In this document: positions 28,585 to 64,000 of the stretch, in pieces | How positions within the stretch are numbered: the first letter of the stretch is position 1 | Layout of the letters: the number at the start of each line of letters is the position of its first letter | Assembly: GCA_002170315.2 (NCBI GenBank) | Contig: NHFA02000025.1 | Location: 7,084 to 71,083, forward strand | Direction of reading: 5' to 3' | DNA length: 64,000 nucleotides | Source: Euryarchaeota archaeon TMED99 | GTDB taxonomy: Archaea > Thermoplasmatota > Poseidoniia > Poseidoniales > Poseidoniaceae | The notes under the pieces: model-generated | Told to the model about the DNA's origin: nothing | The model's input: only the letters and a program-made list of their open reading frames with translations | Databases searched by the model: none | Made by a program: the position numbers and the translations under genes

Positions 28585-29433
28585 TCAATTTAATTTGACC
28601 TTGTAGCGATCTCTTCCATTAGCATACATCGTAATTGTTCCCGTTGAAGAGACGCAGACGGCAATTCCTTCAACCAATTGTGAAATCGCTCGAGCAGCTA
28701 AATGGCGCCCTCCCTCTCCTGCTTTGGGTACAATGCCTGCGGGAACTTGGATATACCTTCCAGCATCACTCGCAATGCCGTCACGGTTAAACAAAATCGC
28801 TCCATCAAGCCATGCAAATTCTGCTAAAGTTTCATGATTTTCGTCGTACAAAACGCTGCGCTTTTCTGGACTGTGGCCCTTAAACGGATTGAGTACAAGT
28901 GCTGTCGTGTGCTTTCGCAATGCGGGAAGTGGGCCAATGGCGAACAATGCTCCAATGGCGTGCCCTTCTCGACCTCTGGAGCCAATGTGTCGGGCGAGTT
29001 GCATCATTTTTGTCAGTACTTCTAAATCGATATTGAAATCTTGTGCGAGAGATGCGAAGCGATTAGAATTGAGTGTGGATGTATCGATAATGAAAACACC
29101 GTCAATCGGTTCGGCCAGAATTACCAACATTCGCTCTCCACTCGAAAGATTCCCTTCACCGATGGCTTGCAAGACCAAATCATGCATGTGATTGAGGACG
29201 CTCAACCCTTGAGATGTGAGATTTTCTTCAAGTATGGAACTTCTAATCCCGCTTTCATTGAGTGCTTCTACCACACGATTTTGACTTGAAAGAACGGTGA
29301 GGGTAAGATCAGGTGGTAACACCTCTGCCACCTGTTTCACCTTACGTACGCTGTTAGCAAGCATCAACACAGACTGGAAAGTGCGTCGTTCTGAGGAGAG
29401 AGTACTCGATACCATCGCAGCGAGGTCAACCAT
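28585..29433 (-). CDS. dacZ: Diadenylate cyclase, archaeal DacZ type (c-di-AMP synthase)
   Basis: The C-terminal DAC domain motifs are HAIGALFAIG, LDGAILFNRDG, GGRHLAARAIS and AVCVSSTGTITMY. An N-terminal domain of about 120 aa matches archaeal DacZ. Confidence 0.8.
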   Translation of the reverse strand: MVDLAAMVSSTLSSERRTFQSVLMLANSVRKVKQVAEVLPPDLTLTVLSSQNRVVEALNESGIRSSILEENLTSQGLSVLNHMHDLVLQAIGEGNLSSGERMLVILAEPIDGVFIIDTSTLNSNRFASLAQDFNIDLEVLTKMMQLARHIGSRGREGHAIGALFAIGPLPALRKHTTALVLNPFKGHSPEKRSVLYDENHETLAEFAWLDGAILFNRDGIASDAGRYIQVPAGIVPKAGEGGRHLAARAISQLVEGIAVCVSSTGTITMYANGRDRYKVKLN

Positions 29434-45295: not shown

Positions 45296-46636
45296 ATGGC
45301 ATTCAAACGTGTACTCATTGCCAACCGTGGCGAGATTGCCCTTCGTATTCTTCGAACGCTCCGTGACATGGGGATTGAAGCAGCGATTATTCATGGTCGA
45401 GAAGACCGATTATCGCTACCAGTTCGTTTTTCAGATATCGCTTATGCGAACTACAAGAAAAATCCATTGGACACCTATCTGGATATCGAATCCGTCATCC
45501 ATGCAGCCAAAGAGATGGGTTGTGATGCTGTTCACCCTGGTTATGGCTTTCTCGCAGAAAATGCAACTTTTGTTCGTCGATTAAACGAGGAGGGCATCAC
45601 TTTTATTGGTCCTTCAGCCGATGTCATTTCATTGCTCGGAGATAAAATAGAGGCGAGAGCAGCTATGGAGGCAGCAGGTTTGCCGACTGCCAAAGGCTCT
45701 TCAGAATCCATTTCCGACCCTGAGGTTGCTACAGCATTGGCACAAGAAATTGGCTACCCTGTCATCATTAAGGCTGCTGCAGGAGGCGGTGGAATTGGTA
45801 TGCAAATAGTGGAAAAGGCTGATGAATTTGAAAATGCTTTGAAACTCTGCCAGTCCAGAGCACGTTCAGCCTTCGGCGATGAGCGAGTCTTTGTAGAGAA
45901 GTATATTCAAGGCGCTCAGCACGTCGAGTTCCAAGTTCTCGGTGACGGGAAAAAGGCGATTCACTTCGGTGAAAGGTTTTGTTCAATTCAACGCCGACAC
46001 CAAAAACTCGTAGAGGAAGGGCCTTGGCTTACCGATGAGAAGCGAGAAGAGATTGGAGCATTGGTCTGTAAAGGTGCTGAAGCAGTTGGCTACAAAGGTT
46101 TAGCGACATTTGAATTTCTTCGTGATGCGAATGGTGATTTTTACTTCCTTGAAGTCAACCCCCGTGTTCAAGTTGAGCATACGGTGACTGAACTGATTAC
46201 TGGATACAATTTAGTGGAACTGGGAATTCGTGTAGCTCAAGGTGAGGCTCTTCCAATTGACCAAGAAGATGTAGTTTGGCGAGGCCATGCGATTCAATGC
46301 AGGCTCAATGCAGAAGATCCAAGTAAATTTATTCCGAGTCCTGGTCGTCTTTGGGAATGTCACTTTCCTTCTGGTTATGGGATTCGAGTCGATACACATG
46401 CATATCCTGGTTACGAAATGCCAGGTTGTTTTGATTCTCTGTTGGCAAAGTTGTTGGTATGGGGCAAAGACCGAGATGACGCAGTAAGGCGAATGAGAAC
46501 CGCATTAGACGAAACGGTGATTTCAGGCGTCGAACATTTAATTCCGCTTCATAGGAGAATTATGGATGAAGAGGATTTCCTCCAAAGAGACATCACCATT
46601 CAATACATCGATATGCATCAAGAGCTACTCGGATAA
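45296..46636 (+). CDS. accC: Biotin carboxylase (AccC/PycA type), stand-alone
   Basis: The blocks are KRVLIANRGEIALRILRT, GYPVIIKAAAGGGGIGMQ and FLEVNPRVQVEHTVTE. It is 446 aa with no carrier or transferase gene adjacent. Confidence 0.9.
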   Translation: MAFKRVLIANRGEIALRILRTLRDMGIEAAIIHGREDRLSLPVRFSDIAYANYKKNPLDTYLDIESVIHAAKEMGCDAVHPGYGFLAENATFVRRLNEEGITFIGPSADVISLLGDKIEARAAMEAAGLPTAKGSSESISDPEVATALAQEIGYPVIIKAAAGGGGIGMQIVEKADEFENALKLCQSRARSAFGDERVFVEKYIQGAQHVEFQVLGDGKKAIHFGERFCSIQRRHQKLVEEGPWLTDEKREEIGALVCKGAEAVGYKGLATFEFLRDANGDFYFLEVNPRVQVEHTVTELITGYNLVELGIRVAQGEALPIDQEDVVWRGHAIQCRLNAEDPSKFIPSPGRLWECHFPSGYGIRVDTHAYPGYEMPGCFDSLLAKLLVWGKDRDDAVRRMRTALDETVISGVEHLIPLHRRIMDEEDFLQRDITIQYIDMHQELLG

Positions 46637-51710: not shown

Positions 51711-51776
51711 GTTCTTGGCCAAATGTCCGTTGCGATTATAGGTGAAGGAATCTTGGGAGTGAGGGTAGGTGAGCCC

Positions 51777-54700
51777 ATGACCCAAAACAACAGACAATTG
51801 AAAACCCCATTATTTCTCGTTTTCTTGATGGTATTAGCACCATTCGCAGCTGCTGCAAACGTGACTACATTTGGAAACGGAAACTCAACGACTGATATCG
51901 AATTGCGTGATGGTACTGCTTTTGTCGACGTTAATTCAGGAACGATTGACCTCCCTGCTTCTGAAACAGTGACCAGTGCTTCAATGGATATTTCCACCAG
52001 CATGGTCGAACACAGCGCTCATACCCGTGTCGATATCGAAACAATGCCACGTGTTTGGAATCCGATGTTTAACAACCAACTCACCAAATTTTCGAACGCT
52101 TCACATTTCATTTATGAAGAAGGCTCGAACGCCGTTCCGGTCAAGTTGAAGGCTGAAGGTTTCCTCACTGATTTTGAAGAAACTTCGGCAGGTTTCCTTG
52201 ACCATCGTGCTTTTGCACAAAATCAATTTGGATGGGATCACGGACCAATTGATGCGACCACTGTACCTCCGAACTCAAATATTCCAGACTGTTCAAGTGG
52301 CGACTATTGCTGGGGTACGGGATTGACTGATGATGATTATTCCAACGAATGGGCAGGACAAAATGGTATTACCTACCGCATGACTTCAGCTTCAATATTT
52401 GTTGATTCTTCATTGAAGAACCACATGGCTTTCTTCGACTCATGGCACGATCTTGACATGCAGACTGGCCAAGGAACAAACCCACCTGTTTACTACCGTG
52501 ACTGCGCATACATGGAGATACGCTCCTCATTCAATGATGATTTTGTTGACAATGACCCAGCGGGTTTTGCTCCTATTGACATTGACCTCTCCAATTCATC
52601 TGGTGTTGGTTATGGAAACGGATACTATGCTCGTGGAAGCGGTTCAACAGGTGCTGGACAAATTGATGCACGATGCCAAGGACTTGCTCAAGGCGATTAT
52701 GGTTTAGCAGGTTCATCTACTTCTGTTTCAAATCCAACAGGATGGGCAAATATCGCTATCGATTTGATTCAATATGTTGGCCAATATGTCCAATTCCGCT
52801 TTATCATGGAAGACAATAACATTGGTGGAACCGATGGTGGAAAAGCCGGTTGGTATATCGATAATTTCCGAGTTGGCGACCCGTTGCCTCAATCAGCAGA
52901 CATGTCAATCAATGGTTTCCTTCCTTCCGCTTCAAGTGGTGAGAACCAGCCCAATGGCTTTGGAATTGTCACTCTCGAATCTGAAACAACCAGTTCCGCT
53001 ACGATCTCAGTCGAAGTTCTTGATTCCGCAACCGGACAAGTCATTGTTGACCGTAACGGCAAAACCATGACCAATCTCCAAGGTAAAATCATTGAGTTGT
53101 GGGACATTAGTTCAACAGACCACCCTTCAATAGACTTCAAATTGACCTTTGATTCTGGGCCGAGCCGGCTCTCCTCTCCAGTGTTCCACGGATTTAGTAT
53201 AGGTACTCGGGTCGGAACAGGATTTAATCAAACAACTGGAATGATGATGGACATTGTTGACGGTGTATGGGAAACTCCAGGTAATGGTCAACCGATGATG
53301 TACACTCCTTTGGTCACTGATACAACCTATTCTCCGGTTCTCGAACGAAGTAATTTCGATCGCCCAATTACCCGAATCACGCCAATGATTCAGGACGACT
53401 GTTCTGAAGTCCCCGACCTCTCAATCATCGGATATGGCGGTGAAGGTTTGATCGAAATTGAGAGCGGAACTGAATATATTCTTCCTGAGCCTTTGTTTGG
53501 TTTTACCTCTCTCTTATCCTATCAAAATCCGTGTAATGTTGGTGGAATTTGGTTCGATTTGACGTTTGGCCATCACACAGAACACGTCCAACTCGACGTC
53601 GCTGCAGACGGTCAAGCTGATTGGGGCTTTGAAGAGCCAGCATTCGGAGGATTTGGCCGACAAACAACTTTCTTACAAAGCAAGATTGATGGAATTAACT
53701 ACGGTCAGGCTTCTTCTACTCTTACCATTGATAGCAGTGGTGTGGCAGAAGGTGCCATGTTTATGTTACCGAAGGGTGCAGAAGTAACCTCTGTTGATTT
53801 CGCACTTGACCAAGTTGGAATTCACTCGACCAGTGATCCTGTTGAAGGATTCGACCTTTCACTCTTGTCAGGTACTCAAGAGGTAATTCTTGGCTCAGTC
53901 GAAAACAGTACGCTTCTTTTCCCAGAATTACTTAGCGAATCGATGGATTTGAAAGACCCTCTCAATTCTCTTCTTTCAAACGCCTTGGTTCCTACCAGTC
54001 ATTACGATGCTTATGGAAATGAATGGCAAACGTTCAGAATGAAGGCGACTTCATCAAACGCCTCTACTGGCGCTCAAATGGTCGTTCGCGACCTCGATAT
54101 CGTGTACAACTATACCAACTCGCTCGGTAGCAGCGATGGATTGGACCGTGAACTCAACAAGGGTATTGCATTGTGGGATGGCGGTTCAACTGCAGAAGTT
54201 AAAATGAAGATATCTGGCTCTCTTGGAGGCGGAGTTCATCTTTCGAATCTCCAAGTGTCCACTTCAAGTGGATATGATAACTCGATTAGTTTGGTCGGAA
54301 ATCCAATTGGATTGTATCCAAACGGTGGAATCTATGAAATTGTCACCACTCATGCTGTTAGTTCGCTTACTGGAGCAAGTTTGTCAGAAGCAACATTGAC
54401 TTTTGAATCGAAGACTGGAGATGTGGTGCTCAGCTCTATCGGAGGCCTCTTCTCTGAATCCTCAGATCCTTTGGACCTCATTTCGCTTGAATCATCAAGC
54501 GTTTCACCTATCAGCGATGGAGAGCAAATCACATGGCGCTTTATTGTCAACTCAAACTGGGAAGATACCGATGAAGTACGTATCTATTCCGGATTAATTG
54601 CATCCAATGGCGTCAATGGTCTACCCGATGCAACTCTTCTTGCACCTGCTGGTGGTAATGCTGTAGAAAACGATGCAGTCATCACATCGTTCCAAGTACT

Positions 54701-57695
54701 CAACAATATTGGTATTGTTCAAGACCTTGATGACGGAACCTCTGGCCAGACTGTCAATGTTGTTGGTTCAGTTCGACTTCAAGATTTGTCTATCTCGCCA
54801 AACCCAAGTGGTTATTTCATGGTCCTTGAACAAAAGAGCATCAACAACACCGGTGGAAATATCACCATTGAATGGAACCAAGTAGCGAACCAATCCGGTA
54901 CTCCTAACGGAGATTTCAATTGGGACATTGACCTTGGAATGGCCGCAGGTCAAGACACCTACAGATTCCGTCTTGATGGCTATGAAGGTGGCGACACCTT
55001 GTGTCCTGCTGCTGAATACCGCCCTGACAGTTCGTGTGGTATTCCGTTCAATCTTTCAATCGACACACTTGACCCGAATTTGATGAGCGTTCGAATTCTG
55101 AATGGACAAGTTGACCCATCTCTTGACAGTAACTGGCGTGTTATGGTTGACGATACATGGGTTGTTCCTTCATCGAACCCGACCTCTACTGGTGATCAAT
55201 CGGTTCGAATCAATGCCAGTGATTTGCCAAACCCTCCTGAAGAACTCGACCTGAAGGTTTGGGTTCAATACGACCATGATACGAATTCCAACGGTCAACC
55301 TGAAGCAGACGAATACATCACAGTCACTGCTTACAGCGACGGTGCTGCACCATATGCAAATTATACCGCATCCTTTAATGACAATGCAAACGTTGGTCAA
55401 GACCCTGTTGGGAAGGTTAGCGTTTGGATTGAAGGATACGACAAGGCAGGAAACCCGATTAACGGCGGAGCACCTGGATTTGAAAATGATTATTTCACCT
55501 ATGTTTCAATGAACTCGAAATCTCCAGTCGTTCGTAATTTCTTCATCGATGACTCTCAAGATAATCGATTCTTGAAATCCAATCAACAACAATACAACGG
55601 AAAATGGAACCACACAATGTATGCTGGAAACGTATACCACCTTATTGTCGAAGCAAACGATGACAATGGATGGCGAGACATCGACTATTTCCGCATTGAT
55701 TTAGCTGATGACCGAGATGACATGACCGTCTATTATTATCCAAGAAACGAAACTGCGTGGACCAACAGTCCTTACATCGAAATCATTCCTGAAGATGGTG
55801 ATTTCAAGGGGCCACAGGTGCTTCGAATGAGCGGAAATGTTCTCATTGATCCGTTTGAATCAGATTTCTACTTGGATTTGCCAATACGCATGACTTGGGG
55901 TCTGCCTGGCGCTACAACTTCACTCAACAATCCAGTCTTGTATATGCAAGACCTTGATAATCCACGATACAGAATGCTACCTGCTCCTGGACGTCACATT
56001 CAAGACTGGCACTACAGCGACGGCATCCAACTTGATTATCGTGCAGATACGGTCAATAACCAAATGATTACACCAATTTTCACTGACCTCATGGAAACAC
56101 CTGGGTTGACCGAAGATGTAAGAAGCGGATTTGTTTATCCAGGAGACATTGTTTCATTCCAAGGTCAGTATGCTTATCTGGATGGAATCCTGAATGAAGT
56201 TTACATTACTCCCGAAATTGAATTGACACTTGAACTCACTCGGCAAAATGCTGACCCTGATGGTGCAAAAGGATATTTTGCGTATCCTGGAGAAGTCACT
56301 TACCACACCTTTACCGGTGGAGTGTTTGATATCAACATCACCGTTCCTATTAATACGAATGATTACACTTACACCTTCCGTTTGTGCCCTTATGATGCAA
56401 CCGGTGGAGCCGGTGGATCAAACGGCGAGTGTGGGAATGGCATTGAAGGATTACCATTCGGTGCGGTCGATACAACATCTGCTATCTGTGCATCAGGAGC
56501 ATCGTATGGGTGTCAAAGTTTCAATTTGAAGGTCGATGGAACCCAGCCTGTTGTTGTTCTCGATTCTTGGACGGTTAAGGATTCAAACGAAGAAACGCTT
56601 GCGAATTTCATTCCTACATCGTCATACCATTGCGTTGACGTTGAAGTCATTATTCGTGAACAACAAGCCTTGTTCCAAGGCGATGTTTCAGTTGCATGGA
56701 GTTTCTACAACGGGCCGAATCCAGACACAGATATTTGGGCAGTCTATCGAAATACGTTTGGACCTGAACCACAGTCTCAGGAACTCACAATTACACCCAG
56801 TGGTACTTCGTACTTCGCATCTGCAGAATGTATAGACCTGTGGCCGATTACTGAAGGTCAGTCCGAACCTCAAGCAGCCCAAATCACGGGTACTGATATT
56901 GTCTTCTGGCTTGTCGCTACAGACTCTGCGGGCTCTCAAGCCCTTGATGGCGGCAGTCCTGCTCAACCAATTCCTGGCACTACTGCAGAACATAAATCGA
57001 CGTATGAATTGATTTTCGAAGAAGCTTCCTTTGCAATTACAGATGTCGTAATGCGACCTGCAAAACCTGAAGTCGGCCAAGACATGGATTTGGAAATCAA
57101 AGTTCTGAATGACGGTACAATGGATGGTTCAACAGTTCTCAACATTCGCTCGGTCATCAATGAAGGCGTTCCTGTGTTTGAAGGCAATGTTTCGACCGGT
57201 GAAATTCCTGTTGGCCAATCCGCTTGGATTACTGTTACGCTTCAGCAATTTGATTTAGCGACCACTGGAATGTATTACCTCATTTCAGATGACGCCACGA
57301 ACGATATACTGTATAATGGTTCAAACCTTGGTGAAAAGTTCAATGTTAAGGTAGAGAGTCAGTCCTCAGATTCAAGTGGGTTATTCTTGATTCTCGCTAT
57401 ACTTGGAATCGCAGTGGCCGTTTTGGGTACGTTGGTCTTTGTTTTGATTCGACGTGGAAATGACGGTGATATGTTTGAAGACTATGAAGATGAAGACACC
57501 AAAGCATATGCAGAGTTACCAGGTCAATCGAAGCCACTTTCCGGGCCACCTCAAGCAGCACCTGCAGCGAATGTCTCGCCAGAAATGGCACGGGCTATGG
57601 AAACGTTCCCTCAATGGACTCAAGATGAAATCCAAGGTTACTTTGACCAAGGGTGGAGTATTGAAGCGCTACAAGATTGGGTTAACAGCCAGTGA
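51777..57695 (+). CDS. Giant cell-surface protein (1972 aa): signal peptide, repeated beta-rich modules, CARDB-like domain, TM anchor, acidic/Trp-rich tail
   Basis: The signal peptide is MTQNNRQLKTPLFLVFLMVLAPFAAAA, starting at ATG 51777 after AGGTGAG. The sequence is Asn/Ser/Thr/Asp-rich. A CARDB-like segment is VGQDMDLEIKVLNDGTMDGSTVLNIRS. The TM is LFLILAILGIAVAVLGTLVFVLI, and the tail ends in WTQDEIQGYFDQGWSIEALQDWVNSQ. Confidence 0.85.
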   Translation: MTQNNRQLKTPLFLVFLMVLAPFAAAANVTTFGNGNSTTDIELRDGTAFVDVNSGTIDLPASETVTSASMDISTSMVEHSAHTRVDIETMPRVWNPMFNNQLTKFSNASHFIYEEGSNAVPVKLKAEGFLTDFEETSAGFLDHRAFAQNQFGWDHGPIDATTVPPNSNIPDCSSGDYCWGTGLTDDDYSNEWAGQNGITYRMTSASIFVDSSLKNHMAFFDSWHDLDMQTGQGTNPPVYYRDCAYMEIRSSFNDDFVDNDPAGFAPIDIDLSNSSGVGYGNGYYARGSGSTGAGQIDARCQGLAQGDYGLAGSSTSVSNPTGWANIAIDLIQYVGQYVQFRFIMEDNNIGGTDGGKAGWYIDNFRVGDPLPQSADMSINGFLPSASSGENQPNGFGIVTLESETTSSATISVEVLDSATGQVIVDRNGKTMTNLQGKIIELWDISSTDHPSIDFKLTFDSGPSRLSSPVFHGFSIGTRVGTGFNQTTGMMMDIVDGVWETPGNGQPMMYTPLVTDTTYSPVLERSNFDRPITRITPMIQDDCSEVPDLSIIGYGGEGLIEIESGTEYILPEPLFGFTSLLSYQNPCNVGGIWFDLTFGHHTEHVQLDVAADGQADWGFEEPAFGGFGRQTTFLQSKIDGINYGQASSTLTIDSSGVAEGAMFMLPKGAEVTSVDFALDQVGIHSTSDPVEGFDLSLLSGTQEVILGSVENSTLLFPELLSESMDLKDPLNSLLSNALVPTSHYDAYGNEWQTFRMKATSSNASTGAQMVVRDLDIVYNYTNSLGSSDGLDRELNKGIALWDGGSTAEVKMKISGSLGGGVHLSNLQVSTSSGYDNSISLVGNPIGLYPNGGIYEIVTTHAVSSLTGASLSEATLTFESKTGDVVLSSIGGLFSESSDPLDLISLESSSVSPISDGEQITWRFIVNSNWEDTDEVRIYSGLIASNGVNGLPDATLLAPAGGNAVENDAVITSFQVLNNIGIVQDLDDGTSGQTVNVVGSVRLQDLSISPNPSGYFMVLEQKSINNTGGNITIEWNQVANQSGTPNGDFNWDIDLGMAAGQDTYRFRLDGYEGGDTLCPAAEYRPDSSCGIPFNLSIDTLDPNLMSVRILNGQVDPSLDSNWRVMVDDTWVVPSSNPTSTGDQSVRINASDLPNPPEELDLKVWVQYDHDTNSNGQPEADEYITVTAYSDGAAPYANYTASFNDNANVGQDPVGKVSVWIEGYDKAGNPINGGAPGFENDYFTYVSMNSKSPVVRNFFIDDSQDNRFLKSNQQQYNGKWNHTMYAGNVYHLIVEANDDNGWRDIDYFRIDLADDRDDMTVYYYPRNETAWTNSPYIEIIPEDGDFKGPQVLRMSGNVLIDPFESDFYLDLPIRMTWGLPGATTSLNNPVLYMQDLDNPRYRMLPAPGRHIQDWHYSDGIQLDYRADTVNNQMITPIFTDLMETPGLTEDVRSGFVYPGDIVSFQGQYAYLDGILNEVYITPEIELTLELTRQNADPDGAKGYFAYPGEVTYHTFTGGVFDINITVPINTNDYTYTFRLCPYDATGGAGGSNGECGNGIEGLPFGAVDTTSAICASGASYGCQSFNLKVDGTQPVVVLDSWTVKDSNEETLANFIPTSSYHCVDVEVIIREQQALFQGDVSVAWSFYNGPNPDTDIWAVYRNTFGPEPQSQELTITPSGTSYFASAECIDLWPITEGQSEPQAAQITGTDIVFWLVATDSAGSQALDGGSPAQPIPGTTAEHKSTYELIFEEASFAITDVVMRPAKPEVGQDMDLEIKVLNDGTMDGSTVLNIRSVINEGVPVFEGNVSTGEIPVGQSAWITVTLQQFDLATTGMYYLISDDATNDILYNGSNLGEKFNVKVESQSSDSSGLFLILAILGIAVAVLGTLVFVLIRRGNDGDMFEDYEDEDTKAYAELPGQSKPLSGPPQAAPAANVSPEMARAMETFPQWTQDEIQGYFDQGWSIEALQDWVNSQ

Positions 57696-58513
57696 GCGTG
57701 AAGCGTGTGCCCGCTCGACTCGATTGGGCCGACCAAGTCTGGGAAGACCCAGAAGGTGGCCGGATTTTGCTTCATGGGGTTTTGCCTACCATCGTTTACC
57801 CTCGTTTGATGCGGCCTCGTGAATCTTGGAATGGTCTAGCGTTGCTCGAATCACCAGATGTCGTTGATTTATGGCTTCAAGAAGAAAAAGATGAAGCGGA
57901 ATCTCCAGGAATCAATCTTTCACACGGTATGATCTCAGGCGGAGCTTTTGGAATTTTTTTGGATGAAGTTTCTATGGTCGAGGAAGTGACAAGTGGTCGA
58001 TTCCCCGACCCTGAACCTCGCCGATTACACCGAAATGCGGTCCGCCATGAACGCCCTGTGTTCTTCATTGAACCTACCGCTGATGATGAAGAATGGAATA
58101 AGCACTTAACTCGAGAAGCTAAAGCAGCCTCTCACTGGAAAAAATTGCTTGGAATGGTTTCTATTGGCGGGAAATGGAGAAAACGCGTGAAAAAGAATAT
58201 TTTTGATGCACAAAAGCCTCCTAAGGGCGTTTCCAGTAACTTCGGTTCTGCAGCAGTCCTCTCTGCCACTTGGTGGGATTTGAGCGAATGGTTAGTTGGC
58301 CCCGAAGTCTGCCAATCTCGCAATCAGCGTTACGCAGAACGATTACGTGGGGCACTGGCTACTCTTCGAGAACACTTTGGGGCAGATGCAGTCTTACTTT
58401 TGCCGCTCTACTTACCTCATCGAAATGATATACTTGAGGCATTGAACACTCTTCCCAAACAAGAGAAGATTAGTTTAAACACCACGTCACCCGATACTTT
58501 AGAGGAGGAATGA
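57692..58513 (+). CDS. Hypothetical protein (273 aa), translationally coupled to the giant surface-protein gene
   Basis: The GTG start overlaps the TGA of the upstream gene (GTGA). The composition is soluble and charged. I recognise no motif. Confidence 0.5.
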   Translation: MSVKRVPARLDWADQVWEDPEGGRILLHGVLPTIVYPRLMRPRESWNGLALLESPDVVDLWLQEEKDEAESPGINLSHGMISGGAFGIFLDEVSMVEEVTSGRFPDPEPRRLHRNAVRHERPVFFIEPTADDEEWNKHLTREAKAASHWKKLLGMVSIGGKWRKRVKKNIFDAQKPPKGVSSNFGSAAVLSATWWDLSEWLVGPEVCQSRNQRYAERLRGALATLREHFGADAVLLLPLYLPHRNDILEALNTLPKQEKISLNTTSPDTLEEE

Positions 58514-59049
58514 GTATGTCTGCAACAGCCATCGAAGTTCGAATTGAAAATCACCTGGTTCGCTTCACTCCTCCTGCCCCTATTGACAAACAGGCAGTCA
58601 TTTCTCAACTGGGCGGTCAAGAAACCAGTGGCGTGGTTATCAAAGTCCTTGACAAACCACGTGCTACCTTGGTCATTGATTCGGAAGGCCGAATCACTGT
58701 TCATGGAACTCACCGTGTTGAAGCTGCTCGAGCCGCTGCAAAGGAATTAATGCTTAGATTAGGTCTAAGTGATACGGGTCTTGAAACAGAACTCGGGCCT
58801 GTAGTAGCCTCTTTTGACTTTGGTCAATCAATAAACATCACTCAATTATCCGGTTCGTATCGTGCAGGAAGCGCAGTGTATGATGAGCGTCTTGGATGCA
58901 GCATCATTGAAGATTCACGTCATAATCTCACCTTACATGTTTGGCCGAATGGACGATGCATTGTTCCGAATGCTCGTCATCAAAACATTGTTGCAATGGC
59001 TGCTGTCTATTGGAGAACTCAATTAAAAGATGATAATCTCTTCATCTAG
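58510..59049 (+). CDS. tbp: TATA-box-binding protein (TBP) family, divergent
   Basis: It has the two-repeat architecture at the right size (about 180 aa). Repeat 2 begins VVASFDFGQSINITQLSG (compare N-I-V-A-S-x-D-L-G-x-x-I-x-L). Both repeats have the beta-strand then helix ending (ATLVIDSEGRITVHGTHRVEAARAAAKEL; LTLHVWPNGRCIVPNARHQNIVAMAAVYW). The ATG overlaps the upstream TGA; an alternative ATG 58516 lies 7 nt after GGAGG. Confidence 0.6.
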   Translation: MSMSATAIEVRIENHLVRFTPPAPIDKQAVISQLGGQETSGVVIKVLDKPRATLVIDSEGRITVHGTHRVEAARAAAKELMLRLGLSDTGLETELGPVVASFDFGQSINITQLSGSYRAGSAVYDERLGCSIIEDSRHNLTLHVWPNGRCIVPNARHQNIVAMAAVYWRTQLKDDNLFI

Positions 59050-59127
59050 ACTCCAAATGCTCTTTCTTGTTCCTTTTTCCCCCATGTGTTGAAATCGCAT
59101 GAACTCCAGCAATCATCGAGGGTCGCT

Positions 59128-60015
59128 ATGAAAGATGATGTCGAATGGTCCGGGCCGATTCTCGATAACCACTTTCATTTGAATCGTAATGGCCGCTTCC
59201 TCGAAGCCGCTCATGATTTCAAAAACGTTGGCGGCACTGATATTGTATTGGTCCATTGTCCCGATTTCTCATCCCCACCCACGACCAAAGAAGGCCATAC
59301 TGAATCCTACGCAGATACTGTGAAAATGGCTGAAGAAGTTCGCAAAAATGTTGGTCTTGGTGTTCGTGTTGTTCTTGGCCCCCACCCCGCAGCTTTTGCT
59401 CATCAATTCGCCGCTTGGATTGAAGAATCAGGAGAACAAGGAGCAGAACGTGCTGTAGAGAACTACCATCACAGTATTTCTACCGCAATGGATTTCATTC
59501 ACGAGGGAAAAGCCCACGCACTTGGGGAGGTTGGAAGGCCGCACTGGCCGGTAAGCGAACGCATTTGGGAATTATCCAATACACTGCTTTTGGAAACAAT
59601 GCACTTAGCCCAACAAGAAGGCGTTGCCTTACAATTACATGTTGAAGGTGAACTTGAAACGACCTATCGTGATATGGCTTCAATGGCACAAAAGGCGGGA
59701 TTAGCCGCGAATCGCCTTGTCCGACATTATGCTCCTGCTAATATCTCTCAACACGTGACTCAGGGCGTCACTCCGAGTGTCCTCATTGGAAAAGGAGCCA
59801 TCGAGGAATTGATGGCGACAGTCAACTCATGTTCTCATGGTTTCTTTTTAGAGACCGATTATATGGATGATTTACGTCGACCAGGTGCAGTTTTGGGTCC
59901 AAAAACAGTTCCGAAGCGAACCAAGCAATTACTTGATGCAGGTTTGGATGAAAAATACCTTTGGAAGGCTCATCAAGAACTTGCAGAAGAATTGTATGGG
60001 CCCAGTATTTCTTGA
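59128..60015 (+). CDS. TatD-related metal-dependent hydrolase (archaeal type)
   Basis: The amidohydrolase-fold metal ligand pattern is ILDNHFHL (HxH), ALGEVGRPHW, LQLHVEG, VRHYAP and FLETDYMDD. ATG 59128 lies 4 nt after GAGGGT. Confidence 0.7.
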   Translation: MKDDVEWSGPILDNHFHLNRNGRFLEAAHDFKNVGGTDIVLVHCPDFSSPPTTKEGHTESYADTVKMAEEVRKNVGLGVRVVLGPHPAAFAHQFAAWIEESGEQGAERAVENYHHSISTAMDFIHEGKAHALGEVGRPHWPVSERIWELSNTLLLETMHLAQQEGVALQLHVEGELETTYRDMASMAQKAGLAANRLVRHYAPANISQHVTQGVTPSVLIGKGAIEELMATVNSCSHGFFLETDYMDDLRRPGAVLGPKTVPKRTKQLLDAGLDEKYLWKAHQELAEELYGPSIS

Positions 60016-60090
60016 TGCGACTCAAGGTTTCACCTACCAAATATCCATCACCTTCATGTGTGAAAGCACATACCGGTCACTGTGGCAAGT

Positions 60091-61200
60091 ATGCGGAAGT
60101 CATTGATTCTCGGACTTGTTCTAAGTCTCTTTCTTGCTCCATGCATGATTCTTCCTGCCTCAGCGCAGGACTCGCCACTCCCTGCAGTTGAGTTGAATTG
60201 CGGTTCTGACCCCGTTATGGACGTCCACCCAACTTCGGATGCCGAGGCTACATTGGTTTGTACTGTGACTAATCCTACCTCAGCGAGTGAAGAGATCAGT
60301 ATTACCACATTAGAATGGGATGGCGTCTTAGTCGAAATGACCTTGAGTGAAGATTCCTTTACCCTCGCTGCTGGAGAGGAAGATACCTTTGAGATTCTTT
60401 TCATCGGGCAAACCAAGATACCTGCAACAATTCAATATTCCTTTGAGATTGAAGCCAAAGTCGAGTCATGGAATAATCTCCCGTATGGGCAGTTGCCAGA
60501 TGGCCCTTGGGTTGTGAATACATCTCACATTGGAGATTTGAATATTGAAAGTTACGGAATGGTTGAATTGTTACTTTCCGATGTGACCACACGGTATATG
60601 GAACTCAGCAGCGAAGTTGAGTTTAGTTTTCAAGTGACGAACAAAGGTAATGCGGATGATAAACTCGAGGTTGTCTTTGCAAACGCTGCTGACCTTGAAG
60701 CCGCAGGTTTCACTTTTCCTGGTGGAACCTATGTGAGCGAAAATGTACCCTATCAAGGAACTTCGGGAGTCAAGACACTCTCTATTCGAGCACCTTCTGA
60801 TGTCAGTTCCGACCTCCGCATGCCTCTGCTCATTCGTGCCCAAAGTGGAGATGACGATTCTGCTGAATTCAGTGAAATAAACATCCAACTCGACATCAAA
60901 GCAGCCAGCAGTTCAGGTGGAATCGATGGCTTAGATTCATTGAGTTCTGATGATACTCTACTGTATGTTTCTATTGCTGGCGGCTCGATTCTTGTCATAC
61001 TTTTAATCGTAGTTTTCATTCGAGTTGTTACCAAAAGAAAACCAAAAACCAACGATGTTCCTCAGGTGACTCAACCAATCATTCTACCCGATGAGCCTAG
61101 CGAAGTCTCAGGTGGTGAAGATTTTGATGATTTCTTTTCTGATTTGGACCAAGAACCATCGTCGGCTGATGAATTTGATGATTTATTCGATGATTTGTAA
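60091..61200 (+). CDS. Cell-surface protein (369 aa) with signal peptide, CARDB/NEW-like beta modules, TM anchor and acidic Phe/Asp tail
   Basis: The signal peptide is MRKSLILGLVLSLFLAPCMILPASAQ. The modules resemble FSFQVTNKGNADDKLEVVF. The TM is LLYVSIAGGSILVILLIVVFI, and the tail ends in GGEDFDDFFSDLDQEPSSADEFDDLFDDL. Confidence 0.75.
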   Translation: MRKSLILGLVLSLFLAPCMILPASAQDSPLPAVELNCGSDPVMDVHPTSDAEATLVCTVTNPTSASEEISITTLEWDGVLVEMTLSEDSFTLAAGEEDTFEILFIGQTKIPATIQYSFEIEAKVESWNNLPYGQLPDGPWVVNTSHIGDLNIESYGMVELLLSDVTTRYMELSSEVEFSFQVTNKGNADDKLEVVFANAADLEAAGFTFPGGTYVSENVPYQGTSGVKTLSIRAPSDVSSDLRMPLLIRAQSGDDDSAEFSEINIQLDIKAASSSGGIDGLDSLSSDDTLLYVSIAGGSILVILLIVVFIRVVTKRKPKTNDVPQVTQPIILPDEPSEVSGGEDFDDFFSDLDQEPSSADEFDDLFDDL

Positions 61201-61288
61201 CCTCCTCGGCTTTCAAAAGAGGGTCGCTGAACCACTGTTTTCTTCCTTCCAACAGAGGCAACAGTCATAGGTTGAGTGTTACGGCCAA

Positions 61289-61309
61289 CACCTACCCATT
61301 GGGTAGGTG
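61289..61309 (+). promoter_or_regulatory. Perfect 9-bp hairpin with a 3-nt loop that contains the fabI Shine-Dalgarno in its 3' arm
   Basis: The structure is CACCTACCC-ATT-GGGTAGGTG, followed by CTTTT and then ATG 61315. The AGGTG at 61305..61309 is the only SD-like element for fabI. Confidence 0.5.
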
Positions 61310-61314
61310 CTTTT

Positions 61315-62109
61315 ATGCTCAAATTACAAGGAAAGACAGCCTTCGTATTCGGAGTCGCCAGTGAGGATTCGATTGCATGGGCAATTTGCGAGCAATTGGC
61401 CGCAGCTGGAGTGACACTTTACCTCGGCTACCAGAAGCGTTTCATGAGTCGAATATTCCAATTGAAAGACAAGTTGCCTCAAATTGGGGGGTTCTATCCT
61501 CTTGATGTAGAAGAAGACGCCACGACCAGAGAATTTTTTGAAGCATTTGAGAAAGAACACCCTGGTAAGAAAGCAGACATTCTGGTTCATGCTATTGGTT
61601 TCGCACCTCGTGCTTGTTTCGACCGGCCAATACTTTTTGTTGAAGACAGCGACATCAATACCGCTATGACGATTTCAGCGAATTCTCTGCAACGGTGCTT
61701 GAAACATGCATTGCCTTATCTCAACCCAGGCTCTTCGACGATTACACTTACGTATGCGGCAGCAAATCGGTTTGTTCCGAATTATGGAATCATGTCGATG
61801 GCCAAAGCCGCTCTTGAATGCTGGACACGAGAACTGGCGTGCCATCTTGGCCCTGAAGGCCATCGAATCAATGCAATCTCCTCTGGTCCTATCCGGACCA
61901 TTGCTGCAAGCGGTGTGCCAGGTTTTGACAATATTCTCGACCATGTAGAAGCGAACTCTCCACTTCGAAGAAACGTCAGCCAGGAAGATGTTGCAGGAAC
62001 AGCATTATGGCTTGCAAGTTCGCTTTCAAGTGGCGTGACAGGCCAATGTATCTATGTTGATGGTGGTTATTCGATTACGATGGTGCCTCAGAGCATCATG
62101 AATGAATGA
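61315..62109 (+). CDS. fabI: Enoyl-[acyl-carrier-protein] reductase (NADH), FabI type
   Basis: GKTAFVFGVASEDSIAWAICEQLAAAGVTLYLGY and NYGIMSMAKAALECWTRELACHLGPEGHRINAISSGPIRTIAASG are the FabI SDR signatures (Y-x6-K). ATG 61315 lies 5 nt after AGGTG; the listed ORF starts at GTG 61276. Confidence 0.88.
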   Translation: MLKLQGKTAFVFGVASEDSIAWAICEQLAAAGVTLYLGYQKRFMSRIFQLKDKLPQIGGFYPLDVEEDATTREFFEAFEKEHPGKKADILVHAIGFAPRACFDRPILFVEDSDINTAMTISANSLQRCLKHALPYLNPGSSTITLTYAAANRFVPNYGIMSMAKAALECWTRELACHLGPEGHRINAISSGPIRTIAASGVPGFDNILDHVEANSPLRRNVSQEDVAGTALWLASSLSSGVTGQCIYVDGGYSITMVPQSIMNE

Positions 62110-62118
62110 GGTGAATAT

Positions 62119-64000
62119 ATGGTGAAAGACGGTAATGGGAAAGAAGTCCAAGGACTTGAACAAGGTCCGTTTGAACCGATAGCCATTATCGGCGTATCTG
62201 CTCTCATGCCAGATGCTCCAGATATCGAGACTTTTTGGCAGAATATTTTGGATGCCAAAGTCAGTATTCGGACGATTCCAGAACATCGCTGGATTGGGCC
62301 TGTCGACCATTTTTTCAGAGAAGGTGGCCCCGGTAATATCGAAGAAGGATTTACTTATGCTCGAATTGGTGCGGTCGTCGAAGGCTATGAATTTGATTGG
62401 CGACGTTGGAAGCAACCCCCGGGAACATTAACTCAAATCGATCTTGCTCAACAATGGGCCGTTTCTGTAGCTGCTGCGGCAATTGAACAAGCAGGGTATG
62501 ATGGAGATTCCAAAGATATTGACCGTTTGCGTACAGGTGTTGCTTTTGCCAATGCCCTTGGTGGTGAAAATCGTAATCTCTCCAACATTCGAATTTATTC
62601 GAATCACACCAAAGAATTGGCCAAGTCTCAAGGGATGCCGGAGGAAAACAGTGCTGCATTCATGGAGTCGATTATCGAAGGTGCACCTCGAGTAAATGAA
62701 GACACGATGCCTGGTGAGTTGGCGAATGTGGTTGCTGGACGCGTCTCAAATTTACTTGATTTGCAGGGGCCGAACTTCGCAATGGATGCTGCCTGCGCAT
62801 CATCATTAGCGACTTTGATGGATGCGTGTAGGCTTCTGCAAATGCGACAAGTCGATGTCATGATTGCAGGTGCTACGGACCGAAGTATGGATGCTCCCAC
62901 CTTTGCGAAGTTTAGCGCCATTGGAGCGCTATCTGCAACACATTCTACGCCGTTTGATGCTGGAGCCAACGGCTTTGTCATGGGTGAAGGAGCAGGTGCT
63001 TTTGTTCTCAAACGTCTTTCGGATGCAATCCAAGATGGTGATGAAATTCATGCGGTAATTCGTGGTGTTGGTGGTTCATCAGACGGACGAGGAAAAGGCA
63101 TCACTGCACCGAGTCAGCGTGGTCAAATCCAAGCGATTGCACGTGCTTATTCTCAAGCAGGATACGAAGCAACGACCGTCGAACTCATTGAGGCACATGG
63201 AACTTCGACGAAGGTTGGAGATGCGACCGAACTCGGGACACTGTCCTTGCTCTGGGACGGAAAACCGGCAGGCGAACATGTTGCTGTTGGTTCAATTAAA
63301 TCTCAAGTCGGGCATTTGAAGGCAGCAGCAGGTATTGCAGGACTCATCAAAGCCGTCATGTCTCTCCATCACCGAACCATTCCTCCCTCTGCAGGGTTCA
63401 CTACCCCGAACCCAACTGTTGATTGGAAGAGTAATCCATTTTTTGTTCCTACTCAAGCACGAGAATGGCCTCGTCCGACCGCAAACCCTCGTCGAGCAGG
63501 CGTCTCAGCATTCGGCTTTGGTGGTACAAACTATCACGTGGCTTTGGAAGGGTACGAACCAGATTTCCACGCTGAATTAGCTCAAAATTGGGATCAAAGA
63601 TGGGATGCCTATGCAGAGACAGAATCAACCACTTCGCCTTCATCCGATGCCATATCTGTCCTCGATTCATCGGCCAAACCCTCGTTAACGCATGAAGAAA
63701 TGAAAGCCATTGAAGGGGGAATCCTCTTACTCTCTGCCACAGATTTATCATCTCTGCATTCGAAACTCGAAAAGATAGATTTTGCTGGTACTCATTTCGA
63801 TGAGGACCCTCGTGGTTTGCGACTATCTTCCGCATTGAATGCGGCTTCTTCAGAATACGATTCGTCTGAAGCCTTCCGCATGTGTATCGTAGCAACTTCA
63901 TGGGGTGAATTCCACAAGCGGACAGAACTCGCTGCAAAAGCGATGAGTGACCCTGAAAAGTGGGGCTTTTTACAAGCACAAGGCATCTTGTTGACCAATG
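62119..64000 (+). CDS. Type I polyketide / PUFA-synthase-like multidomain synthase, N-terminal ketosynthase domain (3' end outside window)
   Basis: This ORF is not in the supplied track. I translated frame 1 by hand from ATG 62119, and it is open for all 627 codons to the window edge. The KS motifs are FEPIAIIGVSALMPDAPDIETFWQNIL, NFAMDAACASSLATL (active-site Cys), IEAHGTSTKVGDATE (His), GSIKSQVGHLKAAAG (His) and VSAFGFGGTNYHVALE. About 150 further codons of post-KS linker follow. Confidence 0.88.
   Translation, partial: MVKDGNGKEVQGLEQGPFEPIAIIGVSALMPDAPDIETFWQNILDAKVSIRTIPEHRWIGPVDHFFREGGPGNIEEGFTYARIGAVVEGYEFDWRRWKQPPGTLTQIDLAQQWAVSVAAAAIEQAGYDGDSKDIDRLRTGVAFANALGGENRNLSNIRIYSNHTKELAKSQGMPEENSAAFMESIIEGAPRVNEDTMPGELANVVAGRVSNLLDLQGPNFAMDAACASSLATLMDACRLLQMRQVDVMIAGATDRSMDAPTFAKFSAIGALSATHSTPFDAGANGFVMGEGAGAFVLKRLSDAIQDGDEIHAVIRGVGGSSDGRGKGITAPSQRGQIQAIARAYSQAGYEATTVELIEAHGTSTKVGDATELGTLSLLWDGKPAGEHVAVGSIKSQVGHLKAAAGIAGLIKAVMSLHHRTIPPSAGFTTPNPTVDWKSNPFFVPTQAREWPRPTANPRRAGVSAFGFGGTNYHVALEGYEPDFHAELAQNWDQRWDAYAETESTTSPSSDAISVLDSSAKPSLTHEEMKAIEGGILLLSATDLSSLHSKLEKIDFAGTHFDEDPRGLRLSSALNAASSEYDSSEAFRMCIVATSWGEFHKRTELAAKAMSDPEKWGFLQAQGILLTN

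What the first reader, a model, noticed from the sequence alone, without database searches (positions are those of the whole stretch)
61315..64000. Unlisted open-ended ORF: type I PKS / PUFA-synthase-like ketosynthase directly downstream of fabI in an archaeal gene neighbourhood
The ORF track shows only short antisense ORFs after 62109, because the real frame never reaches a stop inside the window. Reading from ATG 62119, 10 nt after the fabI stop, I get 627 uninterrupted codons.

The N-terminus (FEPIAIIGVSALMPDAPDIETFWQNILDAKVSIRTIPEHRW) is the hallmark start of multidomain type I synthases (PKS, PfaA-like PUFA synthases, HglE-like glycolipid synthases). It is not that of FabB/F/H. The full Cys-His-His triad is present (DAACASSL, EAHGTSTKVGD, KSQVGHLKAAAG), so the KS looks active. 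About 150 further codons of post-KS linker suggest an acyltransferase domain follows.

The same strand upstream carries a TBP-like factor and archaeal-style surface proteins, with small intergenic gaps. Archaea build isoprenoid ether lipids and, as a rule, lack ACP-dependent condensing enzymes. A FabI plus iterative type I synthase locus in an archaeon therefore points to a horizontally acquired fatty-acyl, polyene or hydrocarbon pathway of unknown product. FabI, rather than the FMN-type PfaD reductase, is also an atypical partner for this synthase class.
Basis: partly seen in the sequence, partly recalled or inferred. Interest (0 to 1): 0.8.

Follow-up and report, generated by a model that had tools for sequence, protein, structure and literature searches.

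The report
Archaeal fatty-acid-type megasynthase operon start
The window ends inside the first gene-and-a-bit of a conserved three-gene operon (enoyl reductase, a 3,000-residue PfaA-like "Type R" lipid synthase, and its activating enzyme) that every sampled Marine Group II archaeon carries, giving these abundant ocean archaea a bacterial-style, carrier-protein-dependent route to fatty acyl chains that archaea are generally said to lack.

Summary
ATG 62119 opens 627 stop-free codons encoding an intact PfaA-like ketosynthase, 9 nt after a genuine fabI.

The window is from a Marine Group II archaeon (Ca. Poseidoniales). It is not a chimera: its last 12 kb is colinear with six independent MAGs.

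In 41 Poseidoniales species the full gene is about 3,000 aa. Its domains are KS1–malonyl-AT–KS2 (FabF-like, catalytic residues intact)–3–4 tandem carriers–KR–DH. It is always preceded by fabI and followed by a divergent Sfp-type PPTase.

The core matches the bacterial "Type R" secondary-lipid synthase of Shulse & Allen (2011), whose product is unknown and which was never reported from archaea.

Asgard homologues fuse a FabK/NMO-type enoyl reductase to the N-terminus and a PPTase to the C-terminus. This is colinear with the Poseidoniales gene order, so FabI is most likely the trans enoyl reductase of a complete reducing cycle.

Poseidoniales sequences are monophyletic (99–100% bootstrap), which fits one ancient transfer followed by vertical descent.

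Unexpectedly, almost all carrier domains in the family carry Thr where the phosphopantetheinyl-Ser should be. This includes cultured myxobacteria.

Most likely function: saturated acyl-chain synthesis, possibly for the ester lipids proposed for MGII. The product has not been demonstrated.

The parts
61201..61314 (+). Conserved leader/promoter region of the operon. It contains the box AACAGTCATAGG (61260-61271) and the palindrome/hairpin CACCTACCCA-T-TGGGTAGGTG (61289-61309), whose 3' arm contains an SD-like AGGTG 5 nt before the fabI ATG.
   Evidence: Column identity is 83% among 6 species. The 'AAC..TCA.A' core is near-invariant in 23 Poseidoniales sequences. The 17-mer occurs once in the window against 0.07 expected. 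The hairpin is present in some clades only and its stem is invariant. There is no Rfam match. Its function was not established.
61315..62109 (+). fabI: SDR-type enoyl-ACP reductase, inferred to be the trans-acting ER of the synthase.
   Evidence: Pfam adh_short_C2 E 7.5e-70. All top NCBIfam hits are FabI, but below equivalog cut-offs. All top PDB hits are FabI and Y-x6-K is intact. It is present directly upstream of the synthase in 41/41 Poseidoniales loci at 62-99% identity and is the best-conserved gene of the neighbourhood. It occupies the position of the fused ER domain of Asgard homologues.
62110..62118 (+). 9-nt intergenic spacer with SD-like GGTGA, indicating operon-internal translation start.
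   Evidence: Sequence read directly.
62119..64000 (+). 5' 1,882 nt (627 codons) of the ~3,040-codon Type R / PfaA-like synthase gene, cut by the window edge. It covers KS1 (aa 19-484, about 62173-63570) plus the KS-AT linker. The AT domain starts about 10 codons beyond the window.
   Evidence: The full-length orthologue L001:10001-19129 (93% aa identity, 85.7% nt) has KS1, AT(640-968), KS2(~1159-1620), 4 carriers(~1720-2130), KR(2504-2647) and DH(2726-3030).

Best explanation
The window ends inside a three-gene operon, fabI - synthase - PPTase. [quoted passage not shown] The synthase is an iterative type I enzyme of the PfaA-related 'Type R secondary-lipid synthase' kind. Its domain order is KS1 - malonyl-specific AT - KS2 (a second, FabF-like, catalytically intact ketosynthase in the position earlier annotated as CLF) - 3-4 tandem carrier domains - KR - PKS-type DH.

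Inferred mechanism:
1. The adjacent divergent Sfp-type PPTase activates the carriers.
2. The AT loads malonyl units.
3. KS1 and KS2 condense.
4. KR and DH give a trans-2-enoyl thioester.
5. FabI, acting in trans, reduces it.

The module therefore runs a complete fatty-acid-type reducing cycle and makes a saturated or mostly saturated long acyl chain on the carrier. There is no thioesterase, so release is probably by acyl transfer (for example to the PlsC/PlsY-type acyltransferases reported for MGII) or by an unlinked hydrolase.

What is shown: the domain content, catalytic-residue conservation, gene order, distribution and monophyly. What is inferred: FabI acting on this synthase, the degree of reduction, chain length, release route, the lipid destination, and that Thr is the phosphopantetheine attachment site.
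For: Domain architecture and motifs:
- establish the architecture.
- The AT has GHSLG plus HAFH, the malonyl signature.
- The KR has GGGSGVTAA plus YSAAN.
- The DH has HxxxGxxxxP.
- All KS1, AT and KS2 catalytic residues are conserved in 35/35 Poseidoniales sequences, and in at least 27 of 32 others at every site.

Gene order:
- The order fabI-synthase-PPTase holds in every Poseidoniales locus with enough flank. fabI is present in 41/41. The PPTase is present in 24/26, plus a divergent one in L035.
- Spacing is tight: 9 nt with an SD-like motif in the window, and 6 nt or overlapping at the synthase-PPTase junction.

ER link:
- All five Asgard homologues fuse an NMO/FabK-type ER domain N-terminally and an ACPS domain C-terminally to the same core.
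- This is colinear with the Poseidoniales gene order, so it looks like a non-homologous ER displacement.
- Malonyl-CoA-supplying carboxyltransferase genes are linked in Asgard, Elusimicrobia and Chloroflexi.

Family and descent:
- The architecture equals Type R of Shulse & Allen.
- Poseidoniales are monophyletic at 100/100 and 99% bootstrap, and the gene tree follows the MGIIa/MGIIb split.
- The locus is not a chimera.

Literature context:
- MGII lack G1P dehydrogenase, have G3P dehydrogenase, and are reported to have PlsC/PlsY (PMC6461757, PMC6431249, PMC6962369).
Against: - No product is known for any Type R synthase (PMC3098273).
- Bacterial Type R clusters have no linked ER, so the ancestral product may not be fully reduced.
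- No thioesterase or acyltransferase is present in the operon or in the 64-kb window.
- The carrier domains have Thr in place of the canonical Ser. By established knowledge (E. coli ACP S36T is not modified by AcpS), Thr should block phosphopantetheinylation unless the dedicated PPTase accepts it.
- FabI scores below NCBIfam equivalog cut-offs.
- Only 627 of about 3,040 codons lie in the window. The rest is inferred from orthologues at 93% identity.
- Expression was not tested.
Confidence: 0.6

Rival explanations
1. The operon makes a specialised secondary lipid or polyketide and not bulk fatty acids. Examples would be a very-long-chain hydroxy/keto alkyl chain like heterocyst-glycolipid aglycones, a long-chain diol, an olefin precursor or a partly unsaturated chain. 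FabI would reduce only some cycles, and the two KS domains would partition chain-length stages.
For: The family belongs to the 'secondary lipid synthase' radiation, whose characterised members make PUFAs, heterocyst glycolipids and phenolic-lipid alkyl chains (PMC3098273). Two active KS domains and tandem carriers are typical of such systems. Bacterial hosts of Type R already own FAS II, so there the product must be something extra.
Against: Poseidoniales are not known to have any other ACP-dependent FAS (literature statement, bioRxiv 2024.07.05.601840). Order-wide conservation and very strong FabI conservation fit a housekeeping role better. An ER was independently recruited in two archaeal lineages.
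Confidence: 0.22
2. It is a bona fide omega-3 PUFA synthase (PfaA), as in marine Gammaproteobacteria.
For: The best NCBIfam model is TIGR02813 omega_3_PfaA, for both the KS-AT and the KR-DH regions. Tandem carriers are present.
Against: The score of 933 is below the 1010 cut-off. No pfaB, pfaC or pfaD was seen in the 10-kb flanks whose ORFs were read, and the five upstream genes (four unrelated genes and fabI) are conserved across the loci. There are no FabA-type dehydratase/isomerase domains, which are needed for cis double bonds. The ER is FabI.
Confidence: 0.04
3. The carrier domains are not phosphopantetheinylated because Thr cannot be modified. In that case the protein is a relic, or it works on CoA-bound or otherwise untethered substrates.
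For: 217/227 and 345/349 carrier domains have Thr at the Ser position. The alignment to the Ppant-Ser of PigH, AcpM and CurA is unambiguous.
Against: A PPTase is linked or fused in Poseidoniales, Asgard, Elusimicrobia, Chloroflexi and myxobacteria. These PPTases are mutually related and keep the SxxHS, GxDxE and WxxKE motifs. The Asgard protein has no other carrier for its fused PPTase domain to act on. The near-identical tandem repeats are under obvious purifying selection.
Confidence: 0.1
4. The fabI/KS segment is a bacterial fragment mis-joined to an archaeal contig.
For: GC is slightly higher (0.482) in the last 2 kb. The nearest non-archaeal relatives are bacterial.
Against: Window 52116-63998 aligns as one colinear segment to six independent MAG loci. 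The same junction is present in 41 MAGs, including contigs of 0.7 and 1.5 Mb. The tetranucleotide profile is within the window's range.
Confidence: 0.01

Closest known systems
Type R secondary-lipid synthase cluster (Shulse & Allen 2011, PMC3098273): pfaA homologue KS-MAT-CLF-ACP(3-6)-KR plus a downstream PPTase, in Roseiflexus, Ca. Solibacter/Koribacter and Elusimicrobium
   Same: The domain order is the same, there are 3-6 tandem carriers, a PPTase gene lies immediately downstream, and an acetyl-CoA-carboxylase subunit is occasionally linked. KS1 groups with sequences from the same taxa. The PPTase has the P1b'-type hShxH motif, as VSIGH.
   Different: It is in archaea, as an order-wide core gene, with fabI fused into the operon. 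The 'CLF' keeps Cys-His-Lys-His and is FabF-like, so it is a second KS. A PKS-type DH follows the KR. The paper does not mention the Thr carriers. The product of Type R is unknown.
PfaA of the pfaABCDE omega-3 PUFA synthase (NCBIfam TIGR02813)
   Same: It is the best-scoring curated model for KS-AT and KR-DH. It shares tandem carriers, an Sfp-type PPTase partner, and iterative use of malonyl-CoA.
   Different: The score is below the family cut-off. There is no PfaB, PfaC or PfaD and no FabA-type DH/isomerase. There is an extra KS2 between AT and carriers. The ER is FabI (SDR) and not the FMN-type PfaD. The carriers have Thr instead of Ser.
Type J cluster (pfaD-ER gene followed by pfaA homologue; Planctomyces limnophilus; PMC3098273) and the Asgard fused ER-core-PPTase proteins found here (L067 and others)
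   Same: The ER is encoded directly 5' of the PfaA-like core, giving a minimal ER-plus-synthase module.
   Different: Those ERs are of the FMN/NMO (PfaD/FabK) type. Poseidoniales use the unrelated SDR FabI.
Enediyne PKSE (KS-AT-ACP-KR-DH-PPTase) - recalled from general knowledge, not tested
   Same: It is an iterative PfaA-related core with KR and DH and a dedicated (fused) PPTase, as in the Asgard version.
   Different: PKSE has a single carrier, no second KS and no ER, and makes conjugated polyenes. No enediyne accessory genes are present here.
Bacterial type II FAS (FabF/FabB + FabD + ACP + FabG + FabZ + FabI)
   Same: The same chemistry is predicted. FabI is of the type II kind, and KS2 is FabF-like (136 bits to TIGR03150).
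   Different: All functions except the ER are fused in one 3,000-aa polypeptide. KS1 is type I/PfaA-like. There is no discrete ACP.

Membership tests
Type R secondary-lipid synthase (Shulse & Allen 2011) | A single pfaA homologue with order KS-MAT-CLF-ACP(3-6)-KR | tested here: met
   The full-length orthologue at 93% identity has KS, AT, a KS-like domain, 4 PP-binding domains and KR (then DH). The same order holds in all full-length Poseidoniales loci, with 3-4 carriers. The window itself shows only the KS and linker.
Type R secondary-lipid synthase (Shulse & Allen 2011) | PPTase (pfaE homologue) gene directly downstream, with the P1b' motif hShxH | tested here: met
   ACPS/4PPT_N hits for L001:19136-19894 and L010:19122-19907. 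The gene is present in 24/26 loci with flank, plus a divergent one in L035. The VSIGHS motif is visible in the alignment. It lies beyond the window edge.
Type R secondary-lipid synthase (Shulse & Allen 2011) | The proximal KS groups phylogenetically with Type R reference organisms | tested here: inconclusive
   In the NJ tree, Poseidoniales KS1 falls in a clade with Roseiflexus sp., Acidobacteria and Elusimicrobia sequences, to the exclusion of myxobacterial PKS. Support is 73%. The exact reference strains and other Pfa types (A-T) were not available, and no ML tree was run.
PfaA / omega-3 PUFA synthase (TIGR02813) | Score at or above the curated cut-off (1010.1 bits) | tested here: not met
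   The full-length orthologue scores 932.9 bits. The window fragment scores 365.5 bits.
PfaA / omega-3 PUFA synthase (TIGR02813) | Partner genes pfaB (AT), pfaC (KS-CLF-DH2, FabA-type) and pfaD (FMN ER) in the cluster | tested here: not met
   The genes flanking the synthase are a surface protein, p273, a TBP-like protein, TatD, choice-of-anchor-T and FabI upstream, and the PPTase, small membrane proteins and a peptidase downstream. Unlinked copies elsewhere in the genome could not be excluded.
FabF/FabB type II ketosynthase | Stand-alone ~410-aa KS reaching the FabF equivalog cut-off (493.75) | tested here: not met
   The window fragment scores 207 bits on TIGR03150 against 365 on PfaA. The protein is multidomain.
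FabI enoyl-ACP reductase (for the upstream gene) | SDR fold with the Tyr-x6-Lys catalytic dyad, and best similarity to characterised FabI | tested here: met
   adh_short_C2 scores 236 bits. The 60 best PDB matches are FabI/FabL/InhA, and YGIMSMAK aligns to Thermus YNVMAIAK. Caveat: NCBIfam FabI equivalog cut-offs are not reached (227 against 391).
Phosphopantetheine-dependent carrier domain (PF00550) | Conserved Ser of the (D/G)xDS(L/I) motif as the attachment site | tested here: not met
   Thr replaces Ser in 217/227 carriers of the fetched loci and in 345/349 in database hits. The position was verified against PigH, AcpM and CurA. The fold-level Pfam match itself is met.
HglE-type heterocyst glycolipid synthase / OLS olefin synthase | Phylogenetic placement with HglE/OLS, and partner genes (hglC/D/G; sulfotransferase-TE) | not testable with these tools
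   No reference sequences for these families could be obtained. No such partner domains were seen in the flanks.

The most novel reading that the evidence does not exclude
Marine Group II archaea, and in a fully fused ER-KS-AT-KS-carrier-KR-DH-PPTase form Asgard archaea, possess a self-sufficient carrier-dependent type I fatty acid synthase. This enzyme would be the missing source of acyl chains for the ester-linked, G3P-based or mixed membranes hypothesised for these lineages. Its tandem carriers would be phosphopantetheinylated on threonine by a co-evolved, highly divergent PPTase, a carrier chemistry I could not find described.
Probability: 0.3. Interest if true: 0.92.

Novelty: new variant of a known kind. 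Interest (0 to 1): 0.72.

Why it matters
Textbook and recent primary literature state that archaea lack FAS I/II and almost universally lack ACP and its synthase (bioRxiv 2024.07.05.601840). At the same time, the membrane lipids of MGII, among the most abundant archaea in the surface ocean, remain unknown. Their genomes lack G1P dehydrogenase but carry G3P dehydrogenase and PlsC/PlsY-type acyltransferases (PMC6461757, PMC6431249, PMC6962369).

A conserved, apparently complete reducing megasynthase operon gives a concrete, clonable candidate for where MGII acyl chains would come from. The Asgard fused version bears on the origin of eukaryotic fatty-acid membranes.

The locus also gives the orphan 'Type R' synthase class a context that constrains its chemistry, because an ER was recruited twice. 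It exposes a family-wide Ser-to-Thr change at the carrier attachment site that can be tested directly in cultured myxobacteria.

Tried and rejected
**Chimeric assembly:** rejected, on colinearity with six MAGs and the tetranucleotide profile.

**Ordinary FabF:** rejected.

**True PUFA synthase:** rejected, because the score is below cut-off and there are no pfaB/C/D genes or FabA-type DH.

**KS2 as a chain-length factor:** rejected, because Cys-His-Lys-His is retained in 65/67 sequences.

**The top PDB hit 7zma as a special relative:** rejected. The chain is 1,690 aa and matches in 2 stretches. I recall it as a two-KS bimodule, so the score is summed.

**Structured RNA or riboswitch upstream of fabI:**
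- RNAalifold gave no consensus and Rfam gave no hit.
- The hairpin stem is invariant, so there is no covariation evidence.
- I left this as a side note.

**Literature:**
- They found no paper describing this synthase in MGII or Asgard, and none on Thr-phosphopantetheinylation.
- Villanueva 2017 and Dibrova 2014 are not held, so I could not see which MGII 'fatty-acid genes' they listed.

**Other dead ends:**
- The look-up of encoding contigs for P0352 returned nothing. The neighbouring P0065 worked.
- The PPTase has no detectable solved relative by sequence. It could not be submitted for structure prediction because it lies outside the window.
- The FabI donor lineage could not be determined, because the 120 best hits appear to be all Poseidoniales (the minority that carry names are Poseidoniales, MGII, Euryarchaeota or Thermoplasmatota).
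- Several PPTase ORFs were mis-extracted. Only the correctly extracted ones were used.
Full report
**1. The observation**

Translating window 62119-64000 (+) gives 627 codons without a stop. The ORF is missing from the mechanical ORF list only because it runs off the window. Pfam assigns ketoacyl-synt, Ketoacyl-synt_C and the KS C-terminal extension to residues 19-484. About 143 residues of linker follow.

The preceding ORF is a genuine FabI:
- adh_short_C2 scores 236 bits.
- All best solved relatives are FabI, and Tyr-x6-Lys is intact.
- Its real start is ATG 61315, because homologues are 263-264 aa.

Nine nucleotides separate the fabI stop from the synthase ATG, and they contain an SD-like GGTGA.

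**2. Whose DNA is it?**

The window encodes several archaeal markers:
- an archaeal PSH presenilin
- a TBP-domain protein
- an Hjc resolvase
- giant CARDB/PA14/LamG surface proteins

A scan of one genome per GTDB species found 41 loci from Ca. Poseidoniales (Marine Group II) MAGs with 59-93% identical orthologues. Some lie on contigs of 0.7 and 1.5 Mb.

The last 12 kb of the window aligns as one colinear segment to six of these loci, at 85.7% nucleotide identity to UBA91 (L001). The tetranucleotide profile of 61300-64000 (r = 0.857) lies inside the spread of the rest of the window (0.883 ± 0.035). A mis-join is excluded.

**3. What lies beyond the window edge**

In L001 (93% aa identity) the gene is 3,042 codons. 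Pfam, NCBIfam, PDB and motif analysis give these domains:

| Domain | Residues (L001) | Key features |
|---|---|---|
| KS1 | 19-484 | Cys/His/His intact |
| AT | 640-968 | GHSLG plus HAFH, the malonyl signature |
| KS2 | ~1159-1620 | closest to FabF; LACAS, SHETYTP and TKGFTGH retained |
| Carrier domains ×4 | ~1720-2130 | tandem repeats |
| KR | 2504-2647 | preceded by a pseudo-KR region; GGGSGVTAA, YSAAN |
| PKS-type DH | 2726-3030 | HxxxGxxxxP |

There is no thioesterase.

The next gene, 6 nt downstream or overlapping, is an Sfp-type PPTase. It is so divergent that no solved PPTase matches it by sequence.

All catalytic residues of KS1, AT and KS2 are conserved in 35/35 Poseidoniales sequences. 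At each site they are also conserved in at least 27 of the 32 others.

**4. Conservation**

tblastn with each gene or domain shows one fixed order in every Poseidoniales locus with enough flank: p273 - TBP-like - TatD - choice-of-anchor-T - fabI - synthase - PPTase.
- fabI is present in 41/41 loci at 62-99% identity, the best-conserved gene of the neighbourhood.
- The PPTase is present in 24/26 loci. L035 carries a divergent one, recognised later.

NJ trees of KS1-AT-KS2 (1,455 columns) and of KS1 alone recover Poseidoniales as a clade with 100% and 99% bootstrap. The internal branching follows the MGIIa/MGIIb split. KS1 is 45-51% identical to every other lineage, so no donor stands out.

The simplest history is one ancient acquisition before the radiation of the order, followed by vertical descent. 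FabI clusters with hundreds of members show that the locus is abundant in marine metagenomes.

**5. Which known kind is it?**

The best curated model is PfaA, but below its cut-off (933 against 1010 bits; window fragment 365 against FabF at 207). No pfaB/C/D genes and no FabA-type DH domains are present, so it is not a PUFA synthase.

Shulse & Allen (2011) described a 'Type R' cluster in Roseiflexus, Ca. Solibacter/Koribacter and Elusimicrobium:
- It has one pfaA homologue with KS-MAT-CLF-ACP(3-6)-KR.
- A PPTase gene follows it, sometimes with an ACC subunit.
- Its product is unknown.

That is this architecture. The nearest non-archaeal relatives here come from the same groups, plus Actinomycetota and Anaerolineae. 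That paper does not mention archaea or FabI.

- The 'CLF' is a second, intact KS.
- A DH follows the KR.
- The archaeal versions have recruited an ER.

**6. Why FabI belongs to the machine**

The five Asgard (Promethearchaeota) homologues are 3,500-3,800 aa proteins. In them, an N-terminal NMO/FabK/PfaD-superfamily domain and a C-terminal ACPS domain are fused to the same core. A carboxyltransferase gene lies upstream and an α/β-hydrolase gene downstream.

So the domain order ER-core-PPTase in Asgard equals the gene order fabI-core-PPTase in Poseidoniales. The ER function is supplied by unrelated folds.

Bacterial hosts have FAS II, whereas archaea are reported to lack FAS I/II and almost always ACP (bioRxiv 2024.07.05.601840). 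A dedicated ER therefore has to travel with the synthase in archaea. With KS, AT, carrier, KR, DH and ER, the module can run full reducing cycles. This is inference from anatomy, not demonstration.

**7. An unexpected feature**

All four carriers read DLEGELGIDTVKQAEIM. A Thr occupies the position of the phosphopantetheinyl-Ser, as verified by alignment to the Ser of PigH, AcpM and CurA.

An HMM survey gave these counts:
- Among the fetched loci, 217 of 227 carriers have Thr. Only L035 has Ser, and the rest are degenerate copies.
- Among the 120 best database hits, the count is 345 Thr to 4 Ser. The Thr set includes cultured Stigmatella aurantiaca DW4/3-1 and Corallococcus sp..

Every T-carrier system examined has a linked or fused PPTase. 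These PPTases are mutually related and keep catalytic motifs. In the Asgard proteins the fused PPTase has no other possible substrate.

I therefore infer, at about 60%, that Thr is the attachment site for a co-evolved PPTase. I found no literature on this, but my searches are limited to the held library.

**8. Meaning**

[quoted passage not shown] IPL-GDGTs were absent from MGII-dominated waters (PMC6962369).

None of the MGII genomics papers I could read names this synthase. Public records label its fragments merely 'polyketide synthase, partial'.

The operon is thus the obvious candidate source of acyl chains. The product, chain length, release route and destination remain undetermined. A specialised secondary lipid is a serious rival.

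**9. Verdict**

The feature is a new archaeal, ER-equipped variant of the orphan Type R PfaA-like synthase. It is order-wide in Marine Group II and has an unexplained Thr carrier site.

Noticed in passing
window 61201-61314: The fabI leader is unusually conserved (83% column identity across species). It has a near-invariant box AACAGTCA(T/A)AGG (61260-71). It also has a perfect palindrome/hairpin CACCTACCCA-T-TGGGTAGGTG (61289-61309) ending 5 nt before the ATG, whose 3' arm holds an SD-like AGGTG. The hairpin recurs with different loops in some clades (L026-28, L031, L037, L038) and is absent in others. This could be SD sequestration or a DNA operator. There is no covariation and no Rfam hit.
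   Followed up: partly
L067:6152-19983 (also L048, L060, L064, L070): Asgard (Promethearchaeota) genomes encode a fully fused 3,500-3,800-aa protein: NMO/FabK-type ER - KS - AT - KS2 - 3-5 Thr-carriers - KR - DH - PPTase. A carboxyltransferase gene and a biotin/lipoate-ligase-family gene flank it upstream, and an α/β-hydrolase (candidate releasing enzyme) lies downstream. This is a self-contained FAS-like module in the archaeal lineage closest to eukaryotes.
   Followed up: partly
L001:15101-16400 and all family loci; L081:3972-7913; L083:10001-13648: Tandem carrier domains with Thr instead of the phosphopantetheinyl-Ser (LG[IV]DTV) are a family-wide trait. They occur in bacteria, Asgard and Thermoplasmatota, and in a differently organised multi-KS cluster of cultured myxobacteria (Stigmatella, Corallococcus) that also has its own ACPS gene. 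The precomputed Pfam annotation calls these PP-binding hits only 'faint'.
   Followed up: partly
L035:9965-18696: One divergent Poseidoniales lineage (UBA552; also P0298 and P0343) has a shorter synthase (2,704 aa) with two carriers that carry the canonical Ser (LGIDSI). Its downstream 206-aa PPTase is much more divergent and has no Pfam hit. This may be co-variation of carrier residue and PPTase, but n=1.
   Followed up: partly
L042, L044, L046 (N-termini of the synthase ORFs): Other Thermoplasmatota homologues carry one or two extra Thr-carrier domains N-terminal to KS1. They have no fabI or PPTase within 10 kb, and their neighbours are unrelated (lactate permease, glutamine synthetase).
   Followed up: no
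window 51723-59049: A 1,990-aa surface protein with no Pfam domain is followed, with 4-nt overlaps, by a 273-aa protein and a 179-aa protein. The 179-aa protein has a weak single TBP-repeat hit, far below the TBP family cut-off (21.6 against 181 bits). This trio is syntenic in nearly all Poseidoniales loci, so the 'TBP-like factor' is probably not the general TBP.
   Followed up: no
window 3363-7870 and 45296-46636: A cluster of carboxyltransferase, enoyl-CoA hydratase, biotin carboxylase and biotinyl carrier resembles a methylcrotonyl-/acyl-CoA carboxylase (leucine catabolism) more than an ACC. A second stand-alone biotin carboxylase lies at 45296-46636. The source of malonyl-CoA for the synthase is therefore unresolved.
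   Followed up: no
window 10092-12338 (-): The presenilin-family PSH protease homologue is 748 aa. The PSH model matches mainly residues 534-732, which suggests a long N-terminal extension.
   Followed up: no
window 28585-29433 (-): This ORF has a DisA_N/DAC diadenylate-cyclase domain, suggesting c-di-AMP signalling in this archaeon.
   Followed up: no
protein database hits P0001-P0120, P0241-P0360: Although the gene is about 3,000 codons on long contigs, every database protein for it is 1,392 aa or shorter and mostly labelled 'partial', 'polyketide synthase', 'acyl carrier protein' or 'SDR'. Fragmented gene calls, perhaps from the repeated carrier region, may explain why the locus has gone unremarked.
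   Followed up: no
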